In this document: positions 9,543 to 38,266 of the stretch, piece after piece
Layout: every line of letters starts with the position of its first letter
Numbering within the stretch: position 1 is the stretch's first letter
IMG/VR virus record: IMGVR_UViG_3300038393_000804
Location: 147,598 to 211,597 of that record
Origin: a virus
Lineage: Duplodnaviria; Heunggongvirae; Uroviricota; Caudoviricetes
Direction: 5' to 3' (one strand)
Length of the DNA: 64,000 bases
Notes under the pieces: model-generated
What the model was told of the DNA's origin: nothing
What the model saw: only the letters and a program-made list of their open reading frames with translations
The model's database searches: none
Made by a program: the position numbers and the translations under genes

Positions 9543-12500
9543 GTGACGCACGATTTATCGTTTGCTGTTGATACTAAACAGGAAGTCACTAATATTCCGT
9601 ACAATGTTTTTAGTACGGTACGTTTTACGCATCTGCATCTTCATACTCCATGGAGTTTGTTGGATGGATTCTGTCGGATTGATGACTTAATCGAGCTTGC
9701 CAAAGAATACGGAATGGATTCAATAGGTATTTCGGACCATGGTGTTTGTCATGGGCATATTGAATTCTATACGAAGGCGAAGAAGGCTGGATTAAAACCT
9801 ATTCTGGGTAACGAGATTTATCTCACACCGCACAGGACATGGAAGAAAGAGGAGTACGACAAGCAGCCTGGATTCTGGTTTGACAAAAAGAATCAAACTG
9901 GCTGGCGTCCAAATATGGCTCATATGCTTCTGATTGCAAGAACAAATGAAGGCTATGAGAACTTACTGGAACTGACCAGTCGTGCCCAGCTGGAGGGCTT
10001 CTATCGTAAGCCTCGCGCAGACTATGAACTGATTAAAAGATATGGCAAAGGAATTATTGCCACAACTGCTTGTCTCGGCGGAGAAGTTCCTCAGTTGATT
10101 CAAAGAGGCAGGTATAAAGTAGCGAAGAACCTGATTCGCTTCTATCAGAAATGTTTTGATGAATTGTATCTTGAGATTCAACCGTCAGACATGCCTGAAC
10201 AAATATTGGTCAATGAGGTTCTGAGACAATGGTCAGTCGAGATGAACATCCCGCTTGTAGCCACTTCAGACGCCCATATGCTACGCAAAGAAGAGAAGCC
10301 TATTCACGCTGCCTTAACAACAATTGGACGCAGTGAGGACGCTTCAGACATCTCTGTGTATGAGCATTGTTACTTCATGAGTGCTCAAGAGATGCTCGAC
10401 TTTGGCATCCCACATGAAGCACTAGAGAATGCGTACCAGATTTCTCAGAAGTGTAATGTGGAATTAGAACTGGGCGACATTAAGTTCCCTAAGTTTGATG
10501 TTCCATCTGGACATACATTTGATACCTACATTGCACAGCTATGTAACGTAGCCTTATTTGAATTAGCAATGGACAGAGATATCAACATTGTTGAGTACCA
10601 GGAACGGATGAACTATGAGCTTGATATTATTGCCAAGAAAAACATTTCAGCTTATCTATTAATCGTTTGGGATTATATTAAGTATGCGAAAGACAATGGG
10701 ATATTAGTAGGCCCAGGCCGTGGTTCTGGTGCTGGTTCTCTTGTCTGTTACCTGCTTCATATTACAAACTTAGACCCCATCAAATATGATTTGCTGTTTG
10801 AGCGTTTCATTAATCCAGAGCGACCTGGCTTCCCAGATATTGATACGGACTTCGACTACCTCAGACGACATGAAGTTATTGATTATGTTACAGAGAAGTA
10901 CGGAGCCGACCAAGTAGCACAGATTGGTACGTTCACTACCTTATCCACAAAAGCAGCATTCAAAGATATTGGCCGCGGTCTAGGCATTGACCACAACATT
11001 ATCAATGACATGAATAAGCTAATCCCTGTTCATCAAGGAAAGGTTATGTCCATTGAAGATGCGATGGAAGAAGTCGCGGACTTACAGCCGTATATCAGTC
11101 AGTATCCTGAACTGTTTGAGTTAGCCTCTAAGGTAGAGAAGCTTCCGCGTTCTGCATCTATCCATGCTTGTGGTATGTTAATCACGCCTGACCCAGTATC
11201 AAAGGCAGCTCCATTAATGCGTGGTAAGAACGGTGAGCGTGTTACCCAGTATGAAGGGCCAACGTTAGAGTCAATCGGATACATTAAGTTTGACTTCTTA
11301 GGTTTAAAGAACTTATCGGTTGTTGATATTGCCAGACGCCTTGTAAAGGAACGTCACGGCGTTGACATTGACCCAGATAGCTTAGAGCCTACAGACCCGA
11401 AAGTATTCCAGACCATTAAAGACGGATGGACTGACGGCGTGTTCCAGTTTGAGTCAGATGGTATGAAGAAGATGTTCAGAGGAATGAACAAGGTAGACTT
11501 CAACACACTGGTAGCTGGAAACGCATTGTATCGTCCAGGCCCGATGGATTATATTCCGCAATACCAGCGTCGTGCGAATGGTCAAGAAGACATTCCAGCT
11601 TTACATCCAGAGTATGATGCCATTACCAAAGAGACTTTCGGTATCATGATTTACCAAGAGCAGGTTATGATAGTGTCCCAACGGATGGCTGGATACTCGA
11701 AAGGCGAAGCGGACGTACTACGTAAAGCCGTAGGTAAGAAGAAGAAGGAAATCTTAGAGCCAGCTTTAGAGGAGCTGGAAGCAAAGATGATTGAACACGG
11801 CACACCACAGCACGTTGCCAAGCGTATATGTGATGACATCCGTCCGTTCGCAGGCTACGCGTTTAATAAGTCCCACGCGGCTTGTTATAGCTTCATTGCG
11901 TATCAGACTGCCTTCTTCAAGACGTACTATCCAATAGAGTTCATGACAGCTCTATTAACCATTGGTGCAGACAAGGAAGAAAAGGTTATTAACTACATCA
12001 ATGAATGTAAGCGAATGGGAATCAATATCCTGCCGCCTGACATTAATACATCAGGTGTAGGTTTTACCGTTGAAGGTAATGATATACGTTTCGGTTTAGC
12101 AGCTATCAAAGGACTAGGCGAAGCAGTAATATCTAATATTATGGAAGCAAGACCATATACAAGTCTGCAGAACCTGGTTGAAACACTTCCGAAAAAGCAG
12201 CTTAACAAACGGAGCATTCAAGTCCTAGCAAGGTCTGGTGCGCTGGACGAGCTGGGCAAGGATGCATTGAACCGTATGGACATCCTGCAGCAATTGTACA
12301 TGATTCGTGGAGATAAGGATGACTTGTCTGACGAAATCAATGGATTCACTGATAAGGTTAGACTGGAAGCAGAGAAGGAATTACTGGGGCTTTATGTCTC
12401 TGGTAATCCTCTCTCCGATGTTTCTCAGCCAGTGAATTGGGATTACCTGGGCGACTACGAGAACGTCAACACGGGCGGCATCTTGACTTCATTCAAAGTG

Positions 12501-16520: not shown

Positions 16521-16544
16521 TACAATTGAATGGAGTTGGTTGGG

Positions 16545-16751
16545 ATGAATCCGCAATATGAAAATAACTTTAACTATCATGCGCCGAAAGAAGGGCAGCC
16601 TGAGAAGTACGAAACGATTCGTGCGACTCTTAAGGCAGCAGCTTATAAAATTGATGAGCTTTGTCCTAATTCGCGTGAGAAGTCGCTTGCCATTACAAAA
16701 CTTGAAGAAGCAATGTTCTGGGCTAATGCGGCTATCGCAAGGGAGGAATAA
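16545..16751 (+). CDS. Acb2/Tad1-type helical hairpin protein (candidate immune-signal sponge)
   Basis: NNFNYHAP...CPNSREKSLAITKLEEAMFWANAAIAR resembles the SRENACALTHVEEALMW hairpin of Tad1 as recalled; not aligned computationally. Confidence 0.6.
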   Translation: MNPQYENNFNYHAPKEGQPEKYETIRATLKAAAYKIDELCPNSREKSLAITKLEEAMFWANAAIAREE

Positions 16752-17262: not shown

Positions 17263-17279
17263 CATTAGGAGTGGTTGGA

Positions 17280-18356
17280 ATGAAAGAGCAAGTATTAGGT
17301 ATGAGCAAGGAACATCTAAGACAGGTTGTGGAACAATTAGACTACGATAACTTGGCCGAGATGGAGAAAGATTTCACTAGGATATTTGTTATCCTCTATT
17401 CAACAAGAGACTTATTAAAGCTTCATCCTGTGGCTGTACCAGTGCAGGAAGAAATTAAACACACTGAAGTTCCATTCGAGGAAGAAGAAGACTTTGCTAA
17501 ATTATTAGAAGAATCAGAAACAGTTGATGCTGACGATGGAAAGATTCCTTATCGGTTTGAAAGAAGGATTCGTGGCGGATACATTCCAGAGATTGATGCC
17601 TTCGTTCCTGAAAAGATAATTAATGAATTAGATTTGTATCATGGTGACCTAGTATATGCAACATTACTTAAAGAAGTAGAAGATGGTCCTGACCATTATG
17701 AATATGAGCTAGTGGAACGCGGCCCAGGTAAGGCACCACAGGGTATCATAGAAGTGAAGTATGGCATTGTTGAATATTATCCTTCTACTGAAAGTGGCTT
17801 CGCTGTTACAAAGACAGCAGGAGGCGATGGCATCTATCTAGGACAAGAAAAGCTTGTACTTCCAATTATAGAAGATGATGCACGCGCATTTAAGTTACAA
17901 GAAGATGACGTGATTGACTTGGCATTCTACGAGAACAACCCAGAGAATCCAAAGGTGAGATGGCGGCATTCCGTCTCTGAAATGAGAAACATTGAAACGC
18001 CAAAACCATCAGGATACTATAAAAAGAAAACAGATGGTAAGGATGAAGTAGACCAAGTATTTGTTGGTAAGACTATCTGTTGTATGGGTTATGAGCCAGG
18101 CTGGTCTGACTTCCGTGATGAAGTGGAAAGACGCGGCGGTGAATTCATTGGCATTACAGGAAGAGAAGCAAGAGATTCCCTTGCTGGTATCTTGAAGCGC
18201 TCTAGCTGTTTGATTATGACATTGGGACATGTAGGACATGGCGGCACACAATGGGCTGTTCCATTCTGCAAGAACAATGGTATTCCATATACAAGCATTA
18301 AAACGTTTGGTCGTGCCAGCTTCGTGTTGGCTGCCGATAGATTAATTAATCATTAA
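17280..18356 (+). CDS. Protein with C-terminal DUF2325-like domain
   Basis: C-terminal GKTICCMG...VERRGGEF...LIMTLGHVGH...CKNNGIPY; acidic N-terminal part. Confidence 0.65.
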   Translation: MKEQVLGMSKEHLRQVVEQLDYDNLAEMEKDFTRIFVILYSTRDLLKLHPVAVPVQEEIKHTEVPFEEEEDFAKLLEESETVDADDGKIPYRFERRIRGGYIPEIDAFVPEKIINELDLYHGDLVYATLLKEVEDGPDHYEYELVERGPGKAPQGIIEVKYGIVEYYPSTESGFAVTKTAGGDGIYLGQEKLVLPIIEDDARAFKLQEDDVIDLAFYENNPENPKVRWRHSVSEMRNIETPKPSGYYKKKTDGKDEVDQVFVGKTICCMGYEPGWSDFRDEVERRGGEFIGITGREARDSLAGILKRSSCLIMTLGHVGHGGTQWAVPFCKNNGIPYTSIKTFGRASFVLAADRLINH

Positions 18357-18368
18357 GGAGTGGTTGGT

Positions 18369-18806
18369 TTGAAACTAATCGTAAATGTTCAACAAGCAAA
18401 GGACTTATTAACAGTAAATCGTGAGAAGCACATCGAGGAGTACAAGCTTCAATTAGAGGCTTGGAAAGTCGAGTATGAAAAGTGGAGCAATGATTTGAAA
18501 GCATGGTCTCAAGCAGCAGGTGAAGGTGGAGAATTCGTGAAGCGTCCGAATGAGCCACACAAGCCAGGTTACCATGTTCATTCTTATGACAAGCTTCTTC
18601 GTAAGCTAGGTGTTCATGTGGAAACAAACGTTGAGATTGATGCGGCAGGCAGTTATGGAAACAATGAGTATGAGCAAATCTTTGAAAACAAATTTGATTG
18701 GTCAGGTTCATTCCGCGGCCTTACAGCTTCTTACATTAACAATGGTTCATTGACTGCTGATAAAATTACGGCGTCATCTTTAAACTGGTCTGACTTAACA
18801 GAGTAG
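18369..18806 (+). CDS. Hypothetical protein
   Basis: SD AAGGAG, TTG start; helical 145-aa ORF. Confidence 0.7.
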   Translation: MKLIVNVQQAKDLLTVNREKHIEEYKLQLEAWKVEYEKWSNDLKAWSQAAGEGGEFVKRPNEPHKPGYHVHSYDKLLRKLGVHVETNVEIDAAGSYGNNEYEQIFENKFDWSGSFRGLTASYINNGSLTADKITASSLNWSDLTE

Positions 18807-22392: not shown

Positions 22393-23270
22393 ATGGAGCC
22401 ATTATTATTAATTGTAGTAGCAGCCATTATCGCAGTATGGTTGTTTAAAAGTTTCCCTGGTCTTACAGTCATAGCTTTTTTCTTATTCGCCATGTATGCG
22501 ATTGAACTAGGAAGCCATGAGAAGATTCCGTTAATGACGAACTTTATGAAAGGCGTAAACATAATGTTCAATAGTAAGTTTTAGGAGGTGGTAAGATGTC
22601 ATTGAAAGAAAAGCTTGTTGAATGGAAAGAGCTTAGTGATATGAAGGATAATGCTGATGACCATACAAGGTGTCCGAGATGCCGCGAACAATTATACTTT
22701 TGTGATTGTTGTGCAGTGTTGGCTGATGAAATTCTTCTTAATCACTATGATGAAATTATAGACAAGGCAGAAGAGATGGAGTAGGAGGTAGAGGATGGCA
22801 CGCTGGACGAATCGACCTTCTTGGTGGAATGACCCTATCACACAGAGGCAAGAGCGAGCCATCGCTACCATTACTCAGTGGCTGGGTCATCAATTCACTG
22901 GCAGGGTCAAAGGGGATGCAATGGGATTCATTGGTGAGTACTATGAATTAGCCAAAGAGGTTCGTGACAATGCTGATGTGAATGGCGTTACGAATCGAAG
23001 CATGGCAAGTTTTATATTGGAGGCGGAAGGACCATGGGGTTAAACGTAAGCGAAGCGATGCTACTTAAAGCGCAGTATGAGTTGGAACAATTCCAGCCTG
23101 ATGATAGCGCATTTGATATTGTTGATGTGATTATCACTGATGAAAGCTGGGATGATTATACCCGCGGCTATCTTACATGTAAGTTGGAACAGTGGGGCGA
23201 GTCATTGGACGGCAAGGATTTACTGGAGCAGTTCATAAACTTTGTCGAAGTAATCCTCTCACGAAATTGA
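22393..23270 (+). CDS. Four small hypothetical ORFs (22393-22584 TM, 22596-22784 Cys-rich, 22795-23043, 23034-23270)
   Basis: Each preceded by an AGGAGG-type SD. Confidence 0.65.
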
Positions 23271-23298
23271 TGACGATGTCTTGACATTATGGTACAAT
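23268..23298 (+). promoter_or_regulatory. Possible sigmaA-type extended -10 promoter for the ssb-recA-thyA operon
   Basis: TG-G-TACAAT at 23290-23298; weak -35 ATGACG. Confidence 0.4.
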
Positions 23299-23424
23299 AA
23301 AAAGGCCGCTGAATACTAGCGGTCTCCTACCATAGTGCTTTACTTAGAGGATGTAAGTCTATTATATCCTGTCAGTAGAGCATTATGCTCTCAAAAATAA
23401 ATAGATATTAGGAGTTGTTTTGGT

Positions 23425-23859
23425 ATGAGTTTATCTCAAACATTTGTAGTAGGACGTTTAACAAAGGACCCAGAGGTTCGCAATGTAATGGTAGGAGGAC
23501 AAGAAACAGCAGTTGCTAACTTTGCAGTGGCTTGTGACCGTGATTACGGAGAAGGCACAGACTTCTATGATGTAGTAGTTTGGAGAAAGCAAGCTGAGAA
23601 TGTCGGCAAGTACCTAACCAAGGGTCGTGAGGTATTAGTAACAGGACGCATGCAAAAGCGTACTTACACAGCGAAGACACCAGAAGGTGCTGAATACCCA
23701 CGCGATGTATGGGAGTTGCACGCTGATAAGGTTCAGTTCTTAGGCAGCGCGAAAGATTCTGGCGGCGGTCAAGGTGGCGGAGGATATCAACGTCAAACAC
23801 CACCACCACAAGAACCTGCTTATACACCAGACCCATACGCAGGCGGAGCACCTTTCTAA
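23425..23859 (+). CDS. ssb: Single-stranded DNA-binding protein
   Basis: VGRLTKDPEVR, ANFAVACDR, FYDVVVWRKQAE, GREVLVTGR; Gly/Pro tail ending PF. Confidence 0.95.
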   Translation: MSLSQTFVVGRLTKDPEVRNVMVGGQETAVANFAVACDRDYGEGTDFYDVVVWRKQAENVGKYLTKGREVLVTGRMQKRTYTAKTPEGAEYPRDVWELHADKVQFLGSAKDSGGGQGGGGYQRQTPPPQEPAYTPDPYAGGAPF

Positions 23860-24227: not shown

Positions 24228-24250
24228 CTATACGGGGAGTTGTTTGGTAT

Positions 24251-25309
24251 ATGTCATTAGACAAAGTTTTAGCTCAAATTAATAAGCAGTTTGGTGCTGG
24301 CACAGCGCAAATCCTAACACCTGATTACGTTCGTGAAATCAAAGTGTTTAACTCTGGTTCACTAACATTAGACCTAGCACTAGGACGAGGTGGGATTCCA
24401 AGAGGTCGTTTGGTTGAAGTATTCGGCCCGACATCAGCTGGTAAAACCACACTAGCATTACTACACGCTGCGGAAGTGCAACGTGCAGGAGAAGGATATG
24501 TAGCATTTGTCGATGCGGAGCATACATTTGACCCTGTACTTGCCGCTGAATACGGTGTAGATTTAGGCTCATTGATTTACATTGACCCAGAAACTGCTGA
24601 GAATGCGATTGATACTACCGACGCTCTGATTCGTTCAGGCGAAGTTCGCTTAATCATTGTTGACTCTGTATCGGCTTTAACACCATCAAAGATTGTTGAG
24701 TCATCTGTTGAACAACAAACGATGGCACTGTTAGCCCGATTCATGAGTACTACTTGCCAGAAGTTAAATGGCCCAGCTTACCACCACGATTGTACTGTGT
24801 TATTTATTAACCAGATTCGTGAAAAGCCAGGTGCTTTCAGCCCAGCTGGTACGCCTACAACAACTTCAGGTGGTCGTGCGTTACCATTCTACAGCTCAGT
24901 CCGTTTGAATGTACGTTCTGGTGAACTGTTCAAGAACAAAGCTGGAGACCAAATTGGTCATCAGATGAAGGTCAAAGTTGTTAAGAACAAAGTAGGTATG
25001 CCAGGTAAAGAGGCAACCTTCAGCTTGTTCTATGGCAAAGGTGTTGACCGTGTGGATGAGATTTCTCAGCTGGTATTATTAGCTGGTATCATCCGTCAAG
25101 CTGGTGCTTGGTTCCGCTATGAAGATGAGAACGGTGAACCATTAGAACGCGATGGTGAGATTTGCAAATGGCAAGGCCGCGCAGCGATGACTGAATTCCT
25201 TCGTCAACATCCAAGCTTCTTAATTGAACTTGAGAACAAGCTTCGTGGTGTGGAACTTGAAGCACCAGATATAGCAGAAGACGAGAAGGTTTCAGAAGAA
25301 GGTTACTAA
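24251..25309 (+). CDS. recA: RecA recombinase
   Basis: GSLTLDLALG, Walker A GPTSAGKT, IIVDSVSAL, FINQIREK, GGRALPFYSSVRL, KVVKNKV. Confidence 0.97.
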   Translation: MSLDKVLAQINKQFGAGTAQILTPDYVREIKVFNSGSLTLDLALGRGGIPRGRLVEVFGPTSAGKTTLALLHAAEVQRAGEGYVAFVDAEHTFDPVLAAEYGVDLGSLIYIDPETAENAIDTTDALIRSGEVRLIIVDSVSALTPSKIVESSVEQQTMALLARFMSTTCQKLNGPAYHHDCTVLFINQIREKPGAFSPAGTPTTTSGGRALPFYSSVRLNVRSGELFKNKAGDQIGHQMKVKVVKNKVGMPGKEATFSLFYGKGVDRVDEISQLVLLAGIIRQAGAWFRYEDENGEPLERDGEICKWQGRAAMTEFLRQHPSFLIELENKLRGVELEAPDIAEDEKVSEEGY

Positions 25310-36788: not shown

Positions 36789-37496
36789 ATGGGCCATAAA
36801 GACAACCCCAGACGTATACGGAATAAGGTTATCGCAGCAGGCATTGGGGCGCTACTGGTAGCTGGCGTAGGGTATGAAGGTTATACCGTACAAAAGCAGG
36901 ATAAACTTATTCACGAGTATCAGCAAAAGCTGAACGAGCAAGGGAGTCTGATAGACCAACAGAAAGATACATTGGTGAATCAGAAAAGGGAACTCAAACA
37001 ACTTAATGACCAAGTGAATAAATTAAGTGAACAGCTCGGTAAACAGAAAGCTGATAATCAAAAAGCAACGGAGAGTTTTGAAACCGAGAGGGAAACTCTT
37101 CAAGCTAAGATTAAAGATTTGGAGAAGGAGCTGGCTTTTAAGAAAGCCAATGAAGGGAAGGCGATTGCCGCTAGTACCCTTCCTTCAACAAAATCACCAC
37201 AGGGACGTAAGGTGACTGTTGAAGCGACAGGATACATAGCTACATGCAGCGAGGGATGTACAGGTATTACAGCTACAGGATATAATCTAGCCGCGAATCC
37301 GCACGCTAAGGTTATTGCGGTAGACCCTAATGTTATTCCCCTAGGTACGAAAGTTTATGTACCAGGCTATGGCTATGCAGTTGCTGCCGATACTGGCGGC
37401 GGCATTAACGGACATGAAATTGATGTCCACTTTCCTAGTACCCATGATGCATTACAATGGGGACGAAGAACAATTGAGATTACAATTGTAAATTAA
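36789..37496 (+). CDS. Membrane-anchored coiled-coil 3D-domain cell-wall protein (YocH/YuiC-like)
   Basis: N-terminal TM, heptad repeats, EATGY..GITATG..IAVDPNVIPLGT..AADTGGGINGHEIDV. Confidence 0.9.
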   Translation: MGHKDNPRRIRNKVIAAGIGALLVAGVGYEGYTVQKQDKLIHEYQQKLNEQGSLIDQQKDTLVNQKRELKQLNDQVNKLSEQLGKQKADNQKATESFETERETLQAKIKDLEKELAFKKANEGKAIAASTLPSTKSPQGRKVTVEATGYIATCSEGCTGITATGYNLAANPHAKVIAVDPNVIPLGTKVYVPGYGYAVAADTGGGINGHEIDVHFPSTHDALQWGRRTIEITIVN

Positions 37497-37505
37497 TATA
37501 GGAAG

Positions 37506-37534
37506 TTGACAGACAGCGATGCATCGGTTATACT
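37506..37534 (+). promoter_or_regulatory. Near-consensus sigmaA promoter
   Basis: TTGACA-17 nt-TATACT. Confidence 0.8.
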
Positions 37535-37540
37535 TCAAGT

Positions 37541-37608
37541 ATACCAACCAACTCCTGATTAATTTATAAAGTTCGGATTTAAAGGCCATCCTTCGGGGTG
37601 GCTTTTTT
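37541..37608 (+). ncRNA. Candidate ~68-nt sRNA with 5' anti-SD seed and intrinsic terminator
   Basis: Starts ~7 nt after -10; CCAACCAACTCCT at 37544-37556; GGCCATCC-TTCG-GGGTGGCT + T6; no ATG. Confidence 0.55.
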
Positions 37609-37743
37609 CATTTTAGGGGGAAAATAAAATGGGAGCCGAGGTACTCAAGCTAAAGATGAAGAGAGAGCAGATGGTTAAGGTTGCTGCTAAGCTCGAAGAG
37701 TTAATTGACAAACTAGCAATACAAATAGAGGAGTTGGAAGAGC

Positions 37744-37986
37744 ATGGACATAGTCAGGGAGGTAACAGTAAAGCAGTTTAACGGATTGATTAGGTCAGGT
37801 ACTCCTATTAAGATTTCGTTTTGGGAAAAACACAGGGGTTGGGATGCTATCTATGCCATTGTCAAAAAGAATGAAGGTGAACTTCTTCGTTATGTTTTTG
37901 TTGCAGGTGGGGAAGTAAAAGAGCGTAGCGTTCATGTAGAAGAACTACCCATGCATAACATGACAATAGAAATAATGAATAAATAA
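37744..37986 (+). CDS. Hypothetical protein
   Basis: SD GAGGAG upstream; 80 aa. Confidence 0.6.
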   Translation: MDIVREVTVKQFNGLIRSGTPIKISFWEKHRGWDAIYAIVKKNEGELLRYVFVAGGEVKERSVHVEELPMHNMTIEIMNK

Positions 37987-38048
37987 AAATAGGAAATTTT
38001 AATTAAACCTGTTGACAGAACACTCAAAAAATGGTTTGTATAGATAGT

Positions 38049-38191
38049 GTGAAGGGGAACCTAGTAATTGCATATAACACTCCTTTCATATTGATTATCT
38101 CCTTTTCGTGATAGCTGTACATTTTTCCCTCCCGCAGAGGTTTTTGGTACAGCGCCTTTCTTGTTTGGTTAACCTAGGTTCCCTATATCAC
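38049..38191 (+). ncRNA. Candidate structured RNA in the tRNA-Asn leader with several CU-rich unpaired motifs
   Basis: Closing stem GGGGAACCTAG/CTAGGTTCCCT, inner GCTGTAC/GTACAGC; motifs ACTCCTTTC, TCTCCTTTT, TTCCCTCC. Confidence 0.5.
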
Positions 38192-38194
38192 CTT

Positions 38195-38266
38195 TGCTCT
38201 GTGGCGTAGTGGTAGCGCGACGGACTGTTAATCCGCAGGTCGCAGGTTCGAATCCTGCCAGAGCAG
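38195..38266 (+). tRNA. tRNA-Asn(GTT)
   Basis: Cloverleaf TGCTCTG/CAGAGCA, loop CT-GTT-AA, T arm GCAGG-TTCGAAT-CCTGC; CCA not encoded. Confidence 0.92.

What the first reader, a model, noticed from the sequence alone, without database searches (positions are those of the whole stretch)
37506..37608. Strong promoter plus terminator define a ~68-nt sRNA whose 5' end is antisense to the phage's own RBSs
Seen: TTGACA-17-TATACT, then ATACCAACCAACTCCTG..., then a cUUCGg terminator, with no ORF. The seed's complement AGGAGTTGGTTGGTAT matches the RBS of the Acb2/Tad1-like gene perfectly over 12 nt (GGAGTTGGTTGG, 16532-16543), recA at 14/15 (GGAGTTGTTTGGTAT, 24236-24250), ssb (AGGAGTTGTTTTGGTAT, 23410-23426), and 17267 and 18356 (AGGAGTGGTTGG, 1-nt bulge). 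The match extends well past the core SD. Established: C-rich seeds of Bacillota sRNAs (RoxS, RsaE) block RBSs. Inference: a trans-acting phage sRNA timing recombination and anti-defence genes.
Basis: partly seen in the sequence, partly recalled or inferred. Interest (0 to 1): 0.7.

Follow-up and report, generated by a model that had tools for sequence, protein, structure and literature searches.

The report
Conserved jumbo-phage small RNA masking ssb/recA start sites
A 264-kb Bacillus-type jumbo phage and at least seven related phages carry a tiny non-coding RNA gene whose exposed 5' end is complementary to the ribosome-binding sites of the phage's own ssb and recA genes, so it is most likely a new phage regulatory RNA of a familiar kind, though its expression has not been shown.

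Summary
TTGACA-17-TATACT (37506-37534), a 5' segment AUACCAACCAACUCCUGAU, and an 11-bp UUCG hairpin with a U-run (37581-37608) lie in a 132-nt gap with no ORF. All the claimed RBS matches are there.

One promoter match proves little: the 264-kb genome has 8 equally good ones. Conservation decides it. Seven metagenomic relatives (primase 57-89% identical) keep the -35 and the key -10 positions. They also keep the 18-nt 5' segment, apart from one C-to-U change and one 6-nt insertion. The promoter spacer, the linker and the terminator hairpin all differ (seven hairpin sequences in eight loci), as do the flanking genes.

In five relatives the best predicted RBS partner in a ~20-kb locus is ssb (4) or recA (1). 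The real seed beats 999-1000 of 1000 same-composition permutations. Two more distant jumbo phages lack the seed, and their ssb and recA start sites show only background pairing.

The most likely reading is a trans-acting sRNA that blocks ssb and recA translation. Pairing with Acb2/Tad1 is perfect here but could not be tested in relatives. Two other proposed targets were not supported.

A leader or attenuator role for the downstream genes cannot be excluded. There is no Rfam match. The scan had already reached the same ssb conclusion on another record carrying this sequence.

The parts
37506..37511 (+). -35 hexamer TTGACA
   Evidence: Invariant in all 8 homologous loci (alignment A1).
37529..37534 (+). 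-10 hexamer TATACT, 17 nt after the -35
   Evidence: Positions T1, A2, T3 and T6 are invariant in 8/8 (TATACT, TATAAT or TATGAT), while the 17-18-nt spacer is not conserved.
37541..37608 (+). Predicted ~68-nt non-coding RNA. The start is inferred as 7 nt after the -10; the end is the U-run.
   Evidence: No ORF. No Rfam family here or in 7 relatives. Fold -18 kcal/mol, z -2.7.
37541..37559 (+). Seed AUACCAACCAACUCCUGAU: a CA-rich 5' end followed by the anti-SD ACUCCU
   Evidence: TACCAACCAACT and CTGAT are invariant in 8 loci, with one C-to-U change and one 6-nt insertion between them. Nucleotides 1-12 are unpaired with probability 0.77-0.97 in all 8.
37553..37577 (+). Weak internal hairpin that partly covers the anti-SD
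   Evidence: Present in 5 of 8 homologues and absent in L009, L011 and L012, so probably not essential.
37581..37608 (+). Intrinsic terminator: 11-bp stem, UUCG loop, U-run
   Evidence: Each of the 8 homologues has a hairpin plus a U-rich tract at this place, with 7 different hairpin sequences.
23406..23427 (+). Predicted target: ssb SD through AUG (AGGAGUUGUUUUGGUAUG)
   Evidence: Duplex -22.5 kcal/mol. Among the top 3 of 319 RBS windows in this genome. Top-ranked in 4 of 5 relatives' loci. Seed-permutation test 0/1000.
24234..24251 (+). Predicted target: recA SD through AUG (GGGAGUUGUUUGGUAUAUG)
   Evidence: Duplex -21.2. First or second in 4 of 5 relatives and third in L048. Seed-permutation test 0/1000. 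GGAGT-G is invariant in six phages.
16531..16544 (+). Candidate target: RBS of the Acb2/Tad1-hairpin gene (16545-16751)
   Evidence: 12 contiguous pairs, -23.5. One of only two matches with at most one mismatch to the 12-nt extension in the genome. Conservation could not be tested.
17263..17279 (+). Candidate target: RBS of the DUF2325 gene (17280-18356). Conservation untested.
   Evidence: -22.7. The start of the orthologue in L048 is cut off.
18345..18369 (+). Candidate target: RBS of the 145-aa gene. Not conserved where it could be tested.
   Evidence: -22.6 here. The L050 orthologue scores only -12.0.
37629..37986 (+). Downstream small genes (50 aa and 80 aa) that start 20 nt after the terminator
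   Evidence: There is no room for a promoter of their own, so they must be reached by read-through. The downstream gene differs among relatives and is an SNase-family nuclease gene in 5 of 8, directly in 4 and after one small ORF in L008.

Best explanation
This is a phage-encoded, trans-acting, base-pairing small RNA of about 65-83 nt.

Proposed mechanism:
- Host sigma-A RNA polymerase starts at a near-consensus promoter, and an intrinsic terminator ends the transcript.
- The first ~19 nt (AUACCAACCAACUCCUGAU) stay single-stranded.
- They pair with the region from the Shine-Dalgarno sequence to the AUG of the phage's own ssb and recA mRNAs, forming 15-17 bp with a small internal loop.
- These sites read GGAGU rather than GGAGG, so they pair with 16S rRNA over only about 5 nt. 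The far longer sRNA duplex should therefore keep 30S subunits off and lower SSB and RecA synthesis.
- In this phage the Acb2/Tad1-like gene may be affected as well.

What is shown: the anatomy, its conservation, and the conserved and specific complementarity. What is inferred: the transcription start, that the RNA accumulates, and that pairing represses rather than activates.
For: (1) Anatomy.

(2) Eight homologous loci show the signature of an sRNA gene. The -35 and the key -10 positions are invariant, as is the 5' segment. The spacer and linker vary, there are seven different terminator hairpins, and the neighbouring genes differ.

(3) Seed nucleotides 1-12 are unpaired with P = 0.77-0.97 in all eight.

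(4) ssb and recA are among the top three of 319 RBS windows in this genome. In five relatives' loci, using genes called by the tool, ssb ranks first in four and recA first in one. recA ranks second in three.

(5) Seed-permutation tests. The summed duplex energy over six phages is -121.5 for ssb against -82.3 +/- 10.4 for permuted seeds, and -107.3 for recA against -71.3 +/- 9.9. None of 1000 permutations does as well. With the window left out, 1 of 1000 does.

(6) The only two matches with at most one mismatch to the 12-nt extension in 528 kb (both strands) sit directly after GGAG and before a start codon.

(7) Two more distant jumbo phages, KLEB27-3 and IMG/VR G001, have no seed within 3 mismatches. 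Their ssb and recA RBSs pair only at background level, -8 to -10.5.
Against: - There are no expression data.
- The relatives share ancestry, so the permutation p-values overstate independence.
- In the two phages with variant seeds the pairing is weaker (L054: -14.2 and -13.1) or holds for recA only (L053: ssb -15.6). No clean compensatory change was seen.
- Whether the L050 phage carries the sRNA is unknown.
- Within this genome alone, enrichment of strong duplexes is marginal (p about 0.04).
- The genes just downstream have no promoter of their own, so the same unit may also, or instead, be their leader.
- In five homologues a weak hairpin partly covers the anti-SD.
Confidence: 0.6

Rival explanations
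1. The unit is a promoter-proximal leader or attenuator. The promoter serves the downstream genes (an SNase-family nuclease in most relatives, small ORFs here, then the tRNA cluster). The terminator is a checkpoint that is read through by a modified or phage polymerase, or relieved by an antiterminator. The conserved 5' segment is the site that factor recognises. The short RNA would then be a by-product, as 6S RNA is at lambda PR'. This reading can coexist with a trans function.
For: In all 8 loci the next gene's SD begins only ~5-25 nt after the U-run, leaving no room for a promoter. The downstream gene is SNase in 5 of 8, directly in 4 and after one small ORF in L008. A -10-like TATACC sits at about +1 to +6, which recalls sigma-dependent promoter-proximal pause elements. 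That comparison rests on my own knowledge of lambda PR'.
Against: No stable or conserved antiterminator fold competes with the terminator: with the 3' arm removed the fold is only -1.2 to -8.1 kcal/mol and has no shared geometry. The -35/-10 spacer, where a Q-type binding element would lie, is not conserved. The downstream and upstream genes differ among loci while the element stays the same. This reading does not explain the specific, conserved complementarity to ssb and recA 13-14 kb away.
Confidence: 0.22
2. The conserved 18 bp act at the DNA level, for example as an operator for a phage or host protein placed just after the start site. The RNA itself would have no role.
For: The conserved block starts at about +1 of a conserved promoter. 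A 15-bp palindrome, TATACTTCAAGTATA, spans the -10 and +1 in four loci.
Against: The invariant block TACCAACCAACT..CTGAT is not palindromic. The palindrome is missing in L010 and differs in L009, L011 and L012. A DNA site does not predict a terminator hairpin at a fixed distance in all eight loci, nor the complementarity to ssb and recA.
Confidence: 0.06
3. The RNA is a decoy or sponge for a host factor, or it targets host rather than phage mRNAs. The factor could be an RNA-binding protein that recognises CA-rich single strands, or a host sRNA.
For: The unpaired CA-rich 5' end and the strong host-type promoter would suit early action on the host.
Against: No host genome was available, so this was not tested. 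It does not explain why phage ssb and recA RBSs match the seed and lose the match in phages without it.
Confidence: 0.08
4. A chance promoter-like site lies next to the terminator of the upstream 3D-domain gene, and nothing here is functional.
For: The genome holds 8 equally good promoter matches. The terminator also closes the upstream operon.
Against: The seed is conserved at the nucleotide level across phages whose primases are only 57-63% identical, while the sequence around it is unalignable.
Confidence: 0.02

Closest known systems
RoxS/RsaE-type and LhrC-type sRNAs of Bacillota
   Same: A short trans-encoded RNA with its own sigma-A promoter and an intrinsic terminator. A pyrimidine-rich, unpaired seed pairs with the SD regions of several mRNAs and blocks initiation.
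   Different: No sequence or structure homology (no Rfam hit). The seed sits at the extreme 5' end and holds a single CUCCU plus a CA-rich extension reaching the AUG, rather than repeated C-rich loop motifs. It is encoded by a phage and aimed at the phage's own genes.
c4 antisense RNA of phages P1/P7
   Same: A phage RNA that acts in trans by pairing with the RBS region of the phage's own mRNA (summarised in PMC12197685).
   Different: c4 is cut out of the leader of the operon it controls, in a temperate phage of enterobacteria. This RNA has its own promoter. Its predicted targets lie 13-21 kb away in other transcription units of a large, apparently lytic Bacillaceae phage. There is no Rfam match.
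Lambda PreS (LPR1) sRNA
   Same: A phage-encoded base-pairing sRNA that acts on DNA-replication functions during the lytic cycle (bioRxiv 10.1101/2024.10.31.621285).
   Different: PreS acts on host genes and enhances dnaN translation. This RNA is predicted to repress the phage's own ssb and recA. The two are not homologous.
T4 RegA and gp32 translational autoregulation
   Same: Post-transcriptional limiting of replication and recombination proteins by occluding their translation start regions. gp32 is the T4 SSB. This rests on my own knowledge.
   Different: Those repressors are proteins. Here the predicted repressor is an RNA.

Membership tests
Trans-encoded base-pairing sRNA (functional class) | Own promoter | tested here: met
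   The -35 TTGACA and the -10 positions T1, A2, T3 and T6 are invariant in 8/8 loci while the 17-18-nt spacer varies. The promoter scores 11/12 against consensus. Promoter activity itself is not shown.
Trans-encoded base-pairing sRNA (functional class) | Rho-independent terminator at the 3' end | tested here: met
   A hairpin plus a U-rich tract is present in all 8 homologues, with 7 different stem sequences.
Trans-encoded base-pairing sRNA (functional class) | Non-coding | tested here: met
   No ORF. Indels of 1 and 6 nt and an unalignable linker occur between homologues.
Trans-encoded base-pairing sRNA (functional class) | Conserved, accessible seed | tested here: met
   TACCAACCAACT and CTGAT are invariant. 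P(unpaired) is 0.77-0.97 for nucleotides 1-12.
Trans-encoded base-pairing sRNA (functional class) | Complementary target sites conserved in relatives | tested here: met
   ssb or recA is top-ranked in 5 of 5 relatives' loci. Seed-permutation tests give 0/1000 and 1/1000. The match is absent in two phages that lack the seed.
Trans-encoded base-pairing sRNA (functional class) | The RNA accumulates and changes target expression | not testable with these tools
   This needs a northern blot or RNA-seq, plus reporter assays with compensatory mutations.
RsaE/RoxS family | Match to the family's covariance model | tested here: not met
   No Rfam family reaches its gathering score at the element in the window or in 7 relatives. 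The permissive scan gives only terminator-driven noise.
c4 antisense RNA (P1/P7) | Match to the family model | tested here: not met
   No Rfam hit.
c4 antisense RNA (P1/P7) | Location in the leader of the operon it controls | tested here: not met
   The predicted targets lie 13-21 kb upstream of the RNA gene.
Terminator/antiterminator RNA switch (attenuator, riboswitch-type leader) | A conserved alternative fold that competes with the terminator | tested here: not met
   With the 3' arm removed the fold is -1.2 to -8.1 kcal/mol, with no shared structure that engages the 5' arm.
Terminator/antiterminator RNA switch (attenuator, riboswitch-type leader) | The downstream genes depend on read-through | tested here: inconclusive
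   No promoter fits between the terminator and the next SD in 8/8 loci. Read-through itself is unmeasured, and the downstream genes differ among loci.
Lambda PR'/6S-type Q antitermination unit | A conserved factor-binding element between the -35 and the -10 | tested here: not met
   The spacer is the least conserved part of the unit.
Lambda PR'/6S-type Q antitermination unit | A -10-like pause element in the initially transcribed region | tested here: inconclusive
   TATACC lies at about +1 to +6 in 6 of 8 loci, CATACC in L010 and TGTACC in L011. It lacks the final T of a -10. Pausing cannot be tested here.

The most novel reading that the evidence does not exclude
The RNA is the phage's riboregulator of recombination-dependent replication, an RNA counterpart of T4 RegA and gp32 autoregulation. 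Only host sigma-A polymerase makes it, from one of the very few consensus host-type promoters in the genome. It holds ssb, recA and, in this phage, the Acb2/Tad1 anti-defence sponge in check. Its decline after host-polymerase shut-off would then release their translation, making it a timer. The same unit would also gate read-through into the nuclease and tRNA genes behind it.
Probability: 0.25. Interest if true: 0.72.

Novelty: new member of a known kind. Interest (0 to 1): 0.6.

Why it matters
Almost all described phage-encoded regulatory RNAs come from temperate phages of enterobacteria. A 2025 review of phage sRNAs does not mention Bacillus, Gram-positive hosts or jumbo phages at all (PMC12197685).

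This element offers a conserved sRNA family in large Bacillaceae phages with a concrete, testable pair of targets, ssb and recA. If it is real, these phages set the dosage of their ssDNA-binding and recombination proteins with an RNA, where T4 uses proteins. In this phage the same RNA may also touch an anti-CBASS/Thoeris sponge gene.

The seed is short and the predicted duplexes are explicit, so reporter assays with compensatory mutations could settle the question quickly.

Tried and rejected
- **Close-relative searches in viral contigs.** Searches with the 3D protein, the 80-aa protein and the primase found nothing. So did exact-pattern scans for the seed.
- **18-mer seed scans.** Scans of metagenome contigs and genome contigs gave 35 hits, all chance matches with no promoter or terminator context. 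The gapped pattern gave none.
- **The genome search.** It cannot reach the ENA, Logan or JGI records behind my loci, and it draws no relatives for a virus record. Whole genomes of the sRNA-bearing relatives could therefore not be scanned.
- **UvrD helicase as a third conserved target.** Rejected: the summed energy is no better than that of permuted seeds (p = 0.35).
- **The 145-aa gene as a conserved target.** Rejected in L050.
- **Compensatory change in the two variant-seed phages.** None is clean. L053 recA pairs slightly better with its own inserted seed (-23.7 against -21.4), but ssb does not.
- **A divergent sRNA near the primase of IMG/VR G001.** Not found. The only strong promoter there leads straight into an RBS, with no terminator.
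- **Rfam.** No family matches. The weak Phe_leader, STnc100 and RNAI hits are driven by the terminator.
- **Host targets.** Not tested, because no host genome was to hand.

Full report
**What is there.**
The window is bases 147,598-211,597 of a 264,094-bp IMG/VR phage record. Its closest cultured relative is Bacillus phage vB_BauM_KLEB27-3, with a primase 47% identical. Homologous proteins occur on 220-250-kb contigs in assemblies named Bacillus, Priestia and Cytobacillus, so the host is most likely a member of the Bacillaceae.

A 132-nt gap separates a 3D-domain (cell-wall hydrolase type) gene ending at 37496 from a 50-aa ORF starting at 37629. The gap reads as follows:
- TTGACA (37506-37511), 17 nt, TATACT (37529-37534);
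- then, 7 nt later, AUACCAACCAACUCCUGAUUAAUUUAUAAAGUUCGGAUUU;
- then an 11-bp hairpin with a UUCG loop and a U-run (37581-37608).

There is no ORF. No Rfam family matches.

**Is it more than chance?**
Taken alone, hardly. The genome holds eight promoter matches of 11/12 or better, four of them intergenic. Any RNA containing CUCCU will pair with SD sequences. Against 319 crudely called RBS windows, 18 duplexes reach -16 kcal/mol or lower. Seeds whose 10-nt extension was shuffled gave 7.7 +/- 4.9 (p about 0.04), and the best energy is not unusual. The phage's general RBS is AGGAGG followed by an A-rich spacer, so the GGAGUUGGUUGG type is a minority.

**Conservation.**
I fetched contigs through primase homologues and found the element in seven relatives. 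Their primases are 89% to 57% identical to the window's.

| Locus | Position of the -35 |
|---|---|
| L003 | 10774 |
| L006 | 3253 |
| L008 | 10668 |
| L009 | 10660 |
| L010 | 9239 |
| L011 | 10811 |
| L012 | 12355 |

The alignment (A1) shows which parts are held and which are free.
- Invariant: the -35 TTGACA, the -10 positions T1, A2, T3 and T6, and the blocks TACCAACCAACT and CTGAT.
- Variable: the 17-18-nt promoter spacer and the AU-rich linker.
- The terminator hairpin has seven different sequences in eight loci, each followed by a U-rich tract.
- L012 has ACUUCU in place of ACUCCU, which still allows a G-U pair with AGGAG.
- L009 has a 6-nt insertion that lengthens the pyrimidine tract to CUUCCUUUUCU.

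The flanking genes also differ. Upstream lies a 3D-domain gene, an unannotated 167-aa gene, UDG, two other uncharacterised genes, or MazG. Downstream lies a 50-aa ORF, an 87-aa ORF, or an SNase-family nuclease.

In all eight RNAs the first 12 nt are predicted to be unpaired, with P = 0.77-0.97. Conserved promoter hexamers, a conserved unpaired 5' end and a free-running terminator sequence together form the classical footprint of a seed-at-the-5'-end sRNA gene. No Rfam family matches in the relatives either.

**Targets.**
In this genome, ssb (-21.2) and recA (-21.2) are among the top three of 319 RBS windows in the ranking. The others in the top five are the DUF2325 gene (-21.3), the 145-aa gene (-20.9) and the window holding the Acb2/Tad1 site (-19.8, ranked there under a miscalled start, 16558). 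With the start corrected to 16545 and a 22-nt seed, these five score -21.2 to -23.5. The ssb and recA duplexes run from the SD through the AUG.

The only two matches with at most one mismatch to the 12-nt extension in the whole genome lie directly after GGAG and before a start codon, at Acb2/Tad1 and recA.

I fetched the ssb-recA regions of five relatives and scored every gene the tool had called there, 31-39 per locus. The best RBS partners were:

| Locus | Best | Next |
|---|---|---|
| L048 | ssb -22.9 | an unnamed 59-aa gene -17.3; recA third, -13.7 |
| L049 | ssb -20.5 | recA -19.7 |
| L050 | ssb -22.3 | recA -16.2 |
| L053 | recA -22.7 | an unnamed 69-aa gene -19.2; ssb not in the top four (-15.6) |
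| L054 | ssb -14.2 | recA -13.1 |

Locus medians were -6.7 to -11.5.

The spacers differ by substitutions and indels but keep GGAGUUG...UGGUAUG. The U after GGAG, which departs from the usual AGGAGG and pairs with A12 of the sRNA, is invariant at recA.

I then permuted the 11-nt extension while keeping CUCCUGAU. The real seed beats all 1000 permutations for ssb (sum -121.5 against -82.3 +/- 10.4) and for recA (-107.3 against -71.3 +/- 9.9). With the window excluded, it beats 999 of 1000.

Two more distant jumbo phages serve as negative controls. KLEB27-3 and IMG/VR G001 (primase 45%) have no seed within 3 mismatches anywhere in their genomes. Their ssb and recA RBSs pair only at background level, -8.0 to -10.5.

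Some proposed targets did not hold up. The UvrD-type helicase, which looked recurrent, is not supported (p = 0.35). The 145-aa gene loses the match in L050.

**Mechanism proposed.**
Host sigma-A polymerase makes a ~68-nt RNA. Its free 5' end forms a 15-17-bp duplex over the SD-to-AUG region of ssb and recA. These sites pair with the 16S anti-SD over only about 5 nt, because they read GGAGU rather than GGAGG, so the sRNA should exclude the 30S subunit and lower synthesis of both proteins. ssb has a plausible extended -10 promoter (TGGTACAAT, 23290-23298) and a ~120-nt leader, so regulator and target may both be early, host-polymerase transcripts. Repression, timing and any chaperone dependence are inferences.

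**Rivals.**
The main rival is a leader or attenuator. In all eight loci the next gene starts only ~5-25 nt after the U-run, so those genes can be reached only by read-through. In five of the eight that gene is an SNase-family nuclease, directly in four and after one small ORF in L008. A -10-like TATACC sits at about +1.

Several points count against a purely cis role:
- no conserved antiterminator fold exists;
- the promoter spacer, where a Q-type site would lie, is the least conserved part;
- the neighbouring genes change while the element does not;
- a cis role does not explain the match to ssb and recA.

The two roles can coexist, as they do in terminated leaders that also act in trans. A DNA operator, a decoy or sponge, and plain chance are less likely; the rival entries give the reasons.

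**Comparison with what is known.**
In mechanism the RNA resembles the SD-masking sRNAs of Bacillota (RoxS/RsaE, LhrC) and the c4 RNA of P1/P7. It is a member of neither family: there is no model match, the seed layout differs, it has its own promoter, and its targets are distant. Lambda PreS is a recent example of a phage sRNA acting on replication, but it acts on host dnaN and activates it. In function the nearest analogues are the T4 proteins RegA and gp32 (my own knowledge). A 2025 review of phage sRNAs contains no example from Bacillus, Gram-positive hosts or jumbo phages.

**Earlier notes of this scan.**
An earlier follow-up, made on another record that shares the whole sequence, reached the same conclusion: the element is conserved in at least nine relatives and ssb is the best conserved match. 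I saw that note only after my own ssb result. It agrees with that result but is not independent evidence.

**Limits.**
- No expression data are available.
- My gene calls for the full genome are crude.
- The relatives are phylogenetically related, so the tests overstate independence.
- Whether the L050 phage carries the sRNA is unknown.
- Host targets were not examined.

**Verdict.**
The element is a real, conserved non-coding unit. It is most likely a new phage sRNA family that represses ssb and recA translation (confidence about 0.6). A leader role for the downstream genes is the main alternative, or an additional function.

Noticed in passing
L012:13511-13632: A relative phage carries a match to the Rfam 'skipping-rope' RNA (RF02924, 57.5 bits against a gathering score of 36.7). 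It lies about 1 kb downstream of its copy of the sRNA, near the tRNA genes.
   Followed up: no
window 37529-37543: A 15-bp palindrome, TATACTTCAAGTATA, spans the -10 hexamer and the predicted start site. It is identical in L003, L006 and L008, altered in L009, L011 and L012, and absent in L010. It could be an operator or a coincidence.
   Followed up: partly
window 37629-37781; L009 about 11200-11330: The 50-aa coiled-coil ORF just after the terminator has an uncalled look-alike inside a 636-nt 'gap' of L009 (sequence printed). It is therefore probably a real micro-gene.
   Followed up: no
window 23270-23424: ssb has an extended -10 promoter candidate (TGGTACAAT, 23290-23298) and a ~120-nt leader with hairpins ahead of the predicted sRNA site.
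   Followed up: no
whole genome (G000): Only 8 sites in 264 kb match the sigma-A consensus at 11/12 or better, and only 4 of them are intergenic. Most genes of this phage probably use another promoter type.
   Followed up: no
L054:2590-5248, L054:10001-13789, L049:8201-10235: Relatives are riddled with selfish elements. recA is split around a LAGLIDADG gene. The UvrD-type helicase carries an intein. Thymidylate synthase is split by a GIY-YIG endonuclease gene.
   Followed up: no
L011:5131-5862: A relative encodes an Apyc1-type anti-Pycsar metallo-beta-lactamase-fold protein upstream of the primase.
   Followed up: no
window 38012-38195 and L009 about 11340-11420: A TTGACA-containing promoter-like site and a conserved leader precede the tRNA cluster in both phages. 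In all relatives the sRNA always lies 0.5-1.5 kb upstream of this tRNA cluster.
   Followed up: no
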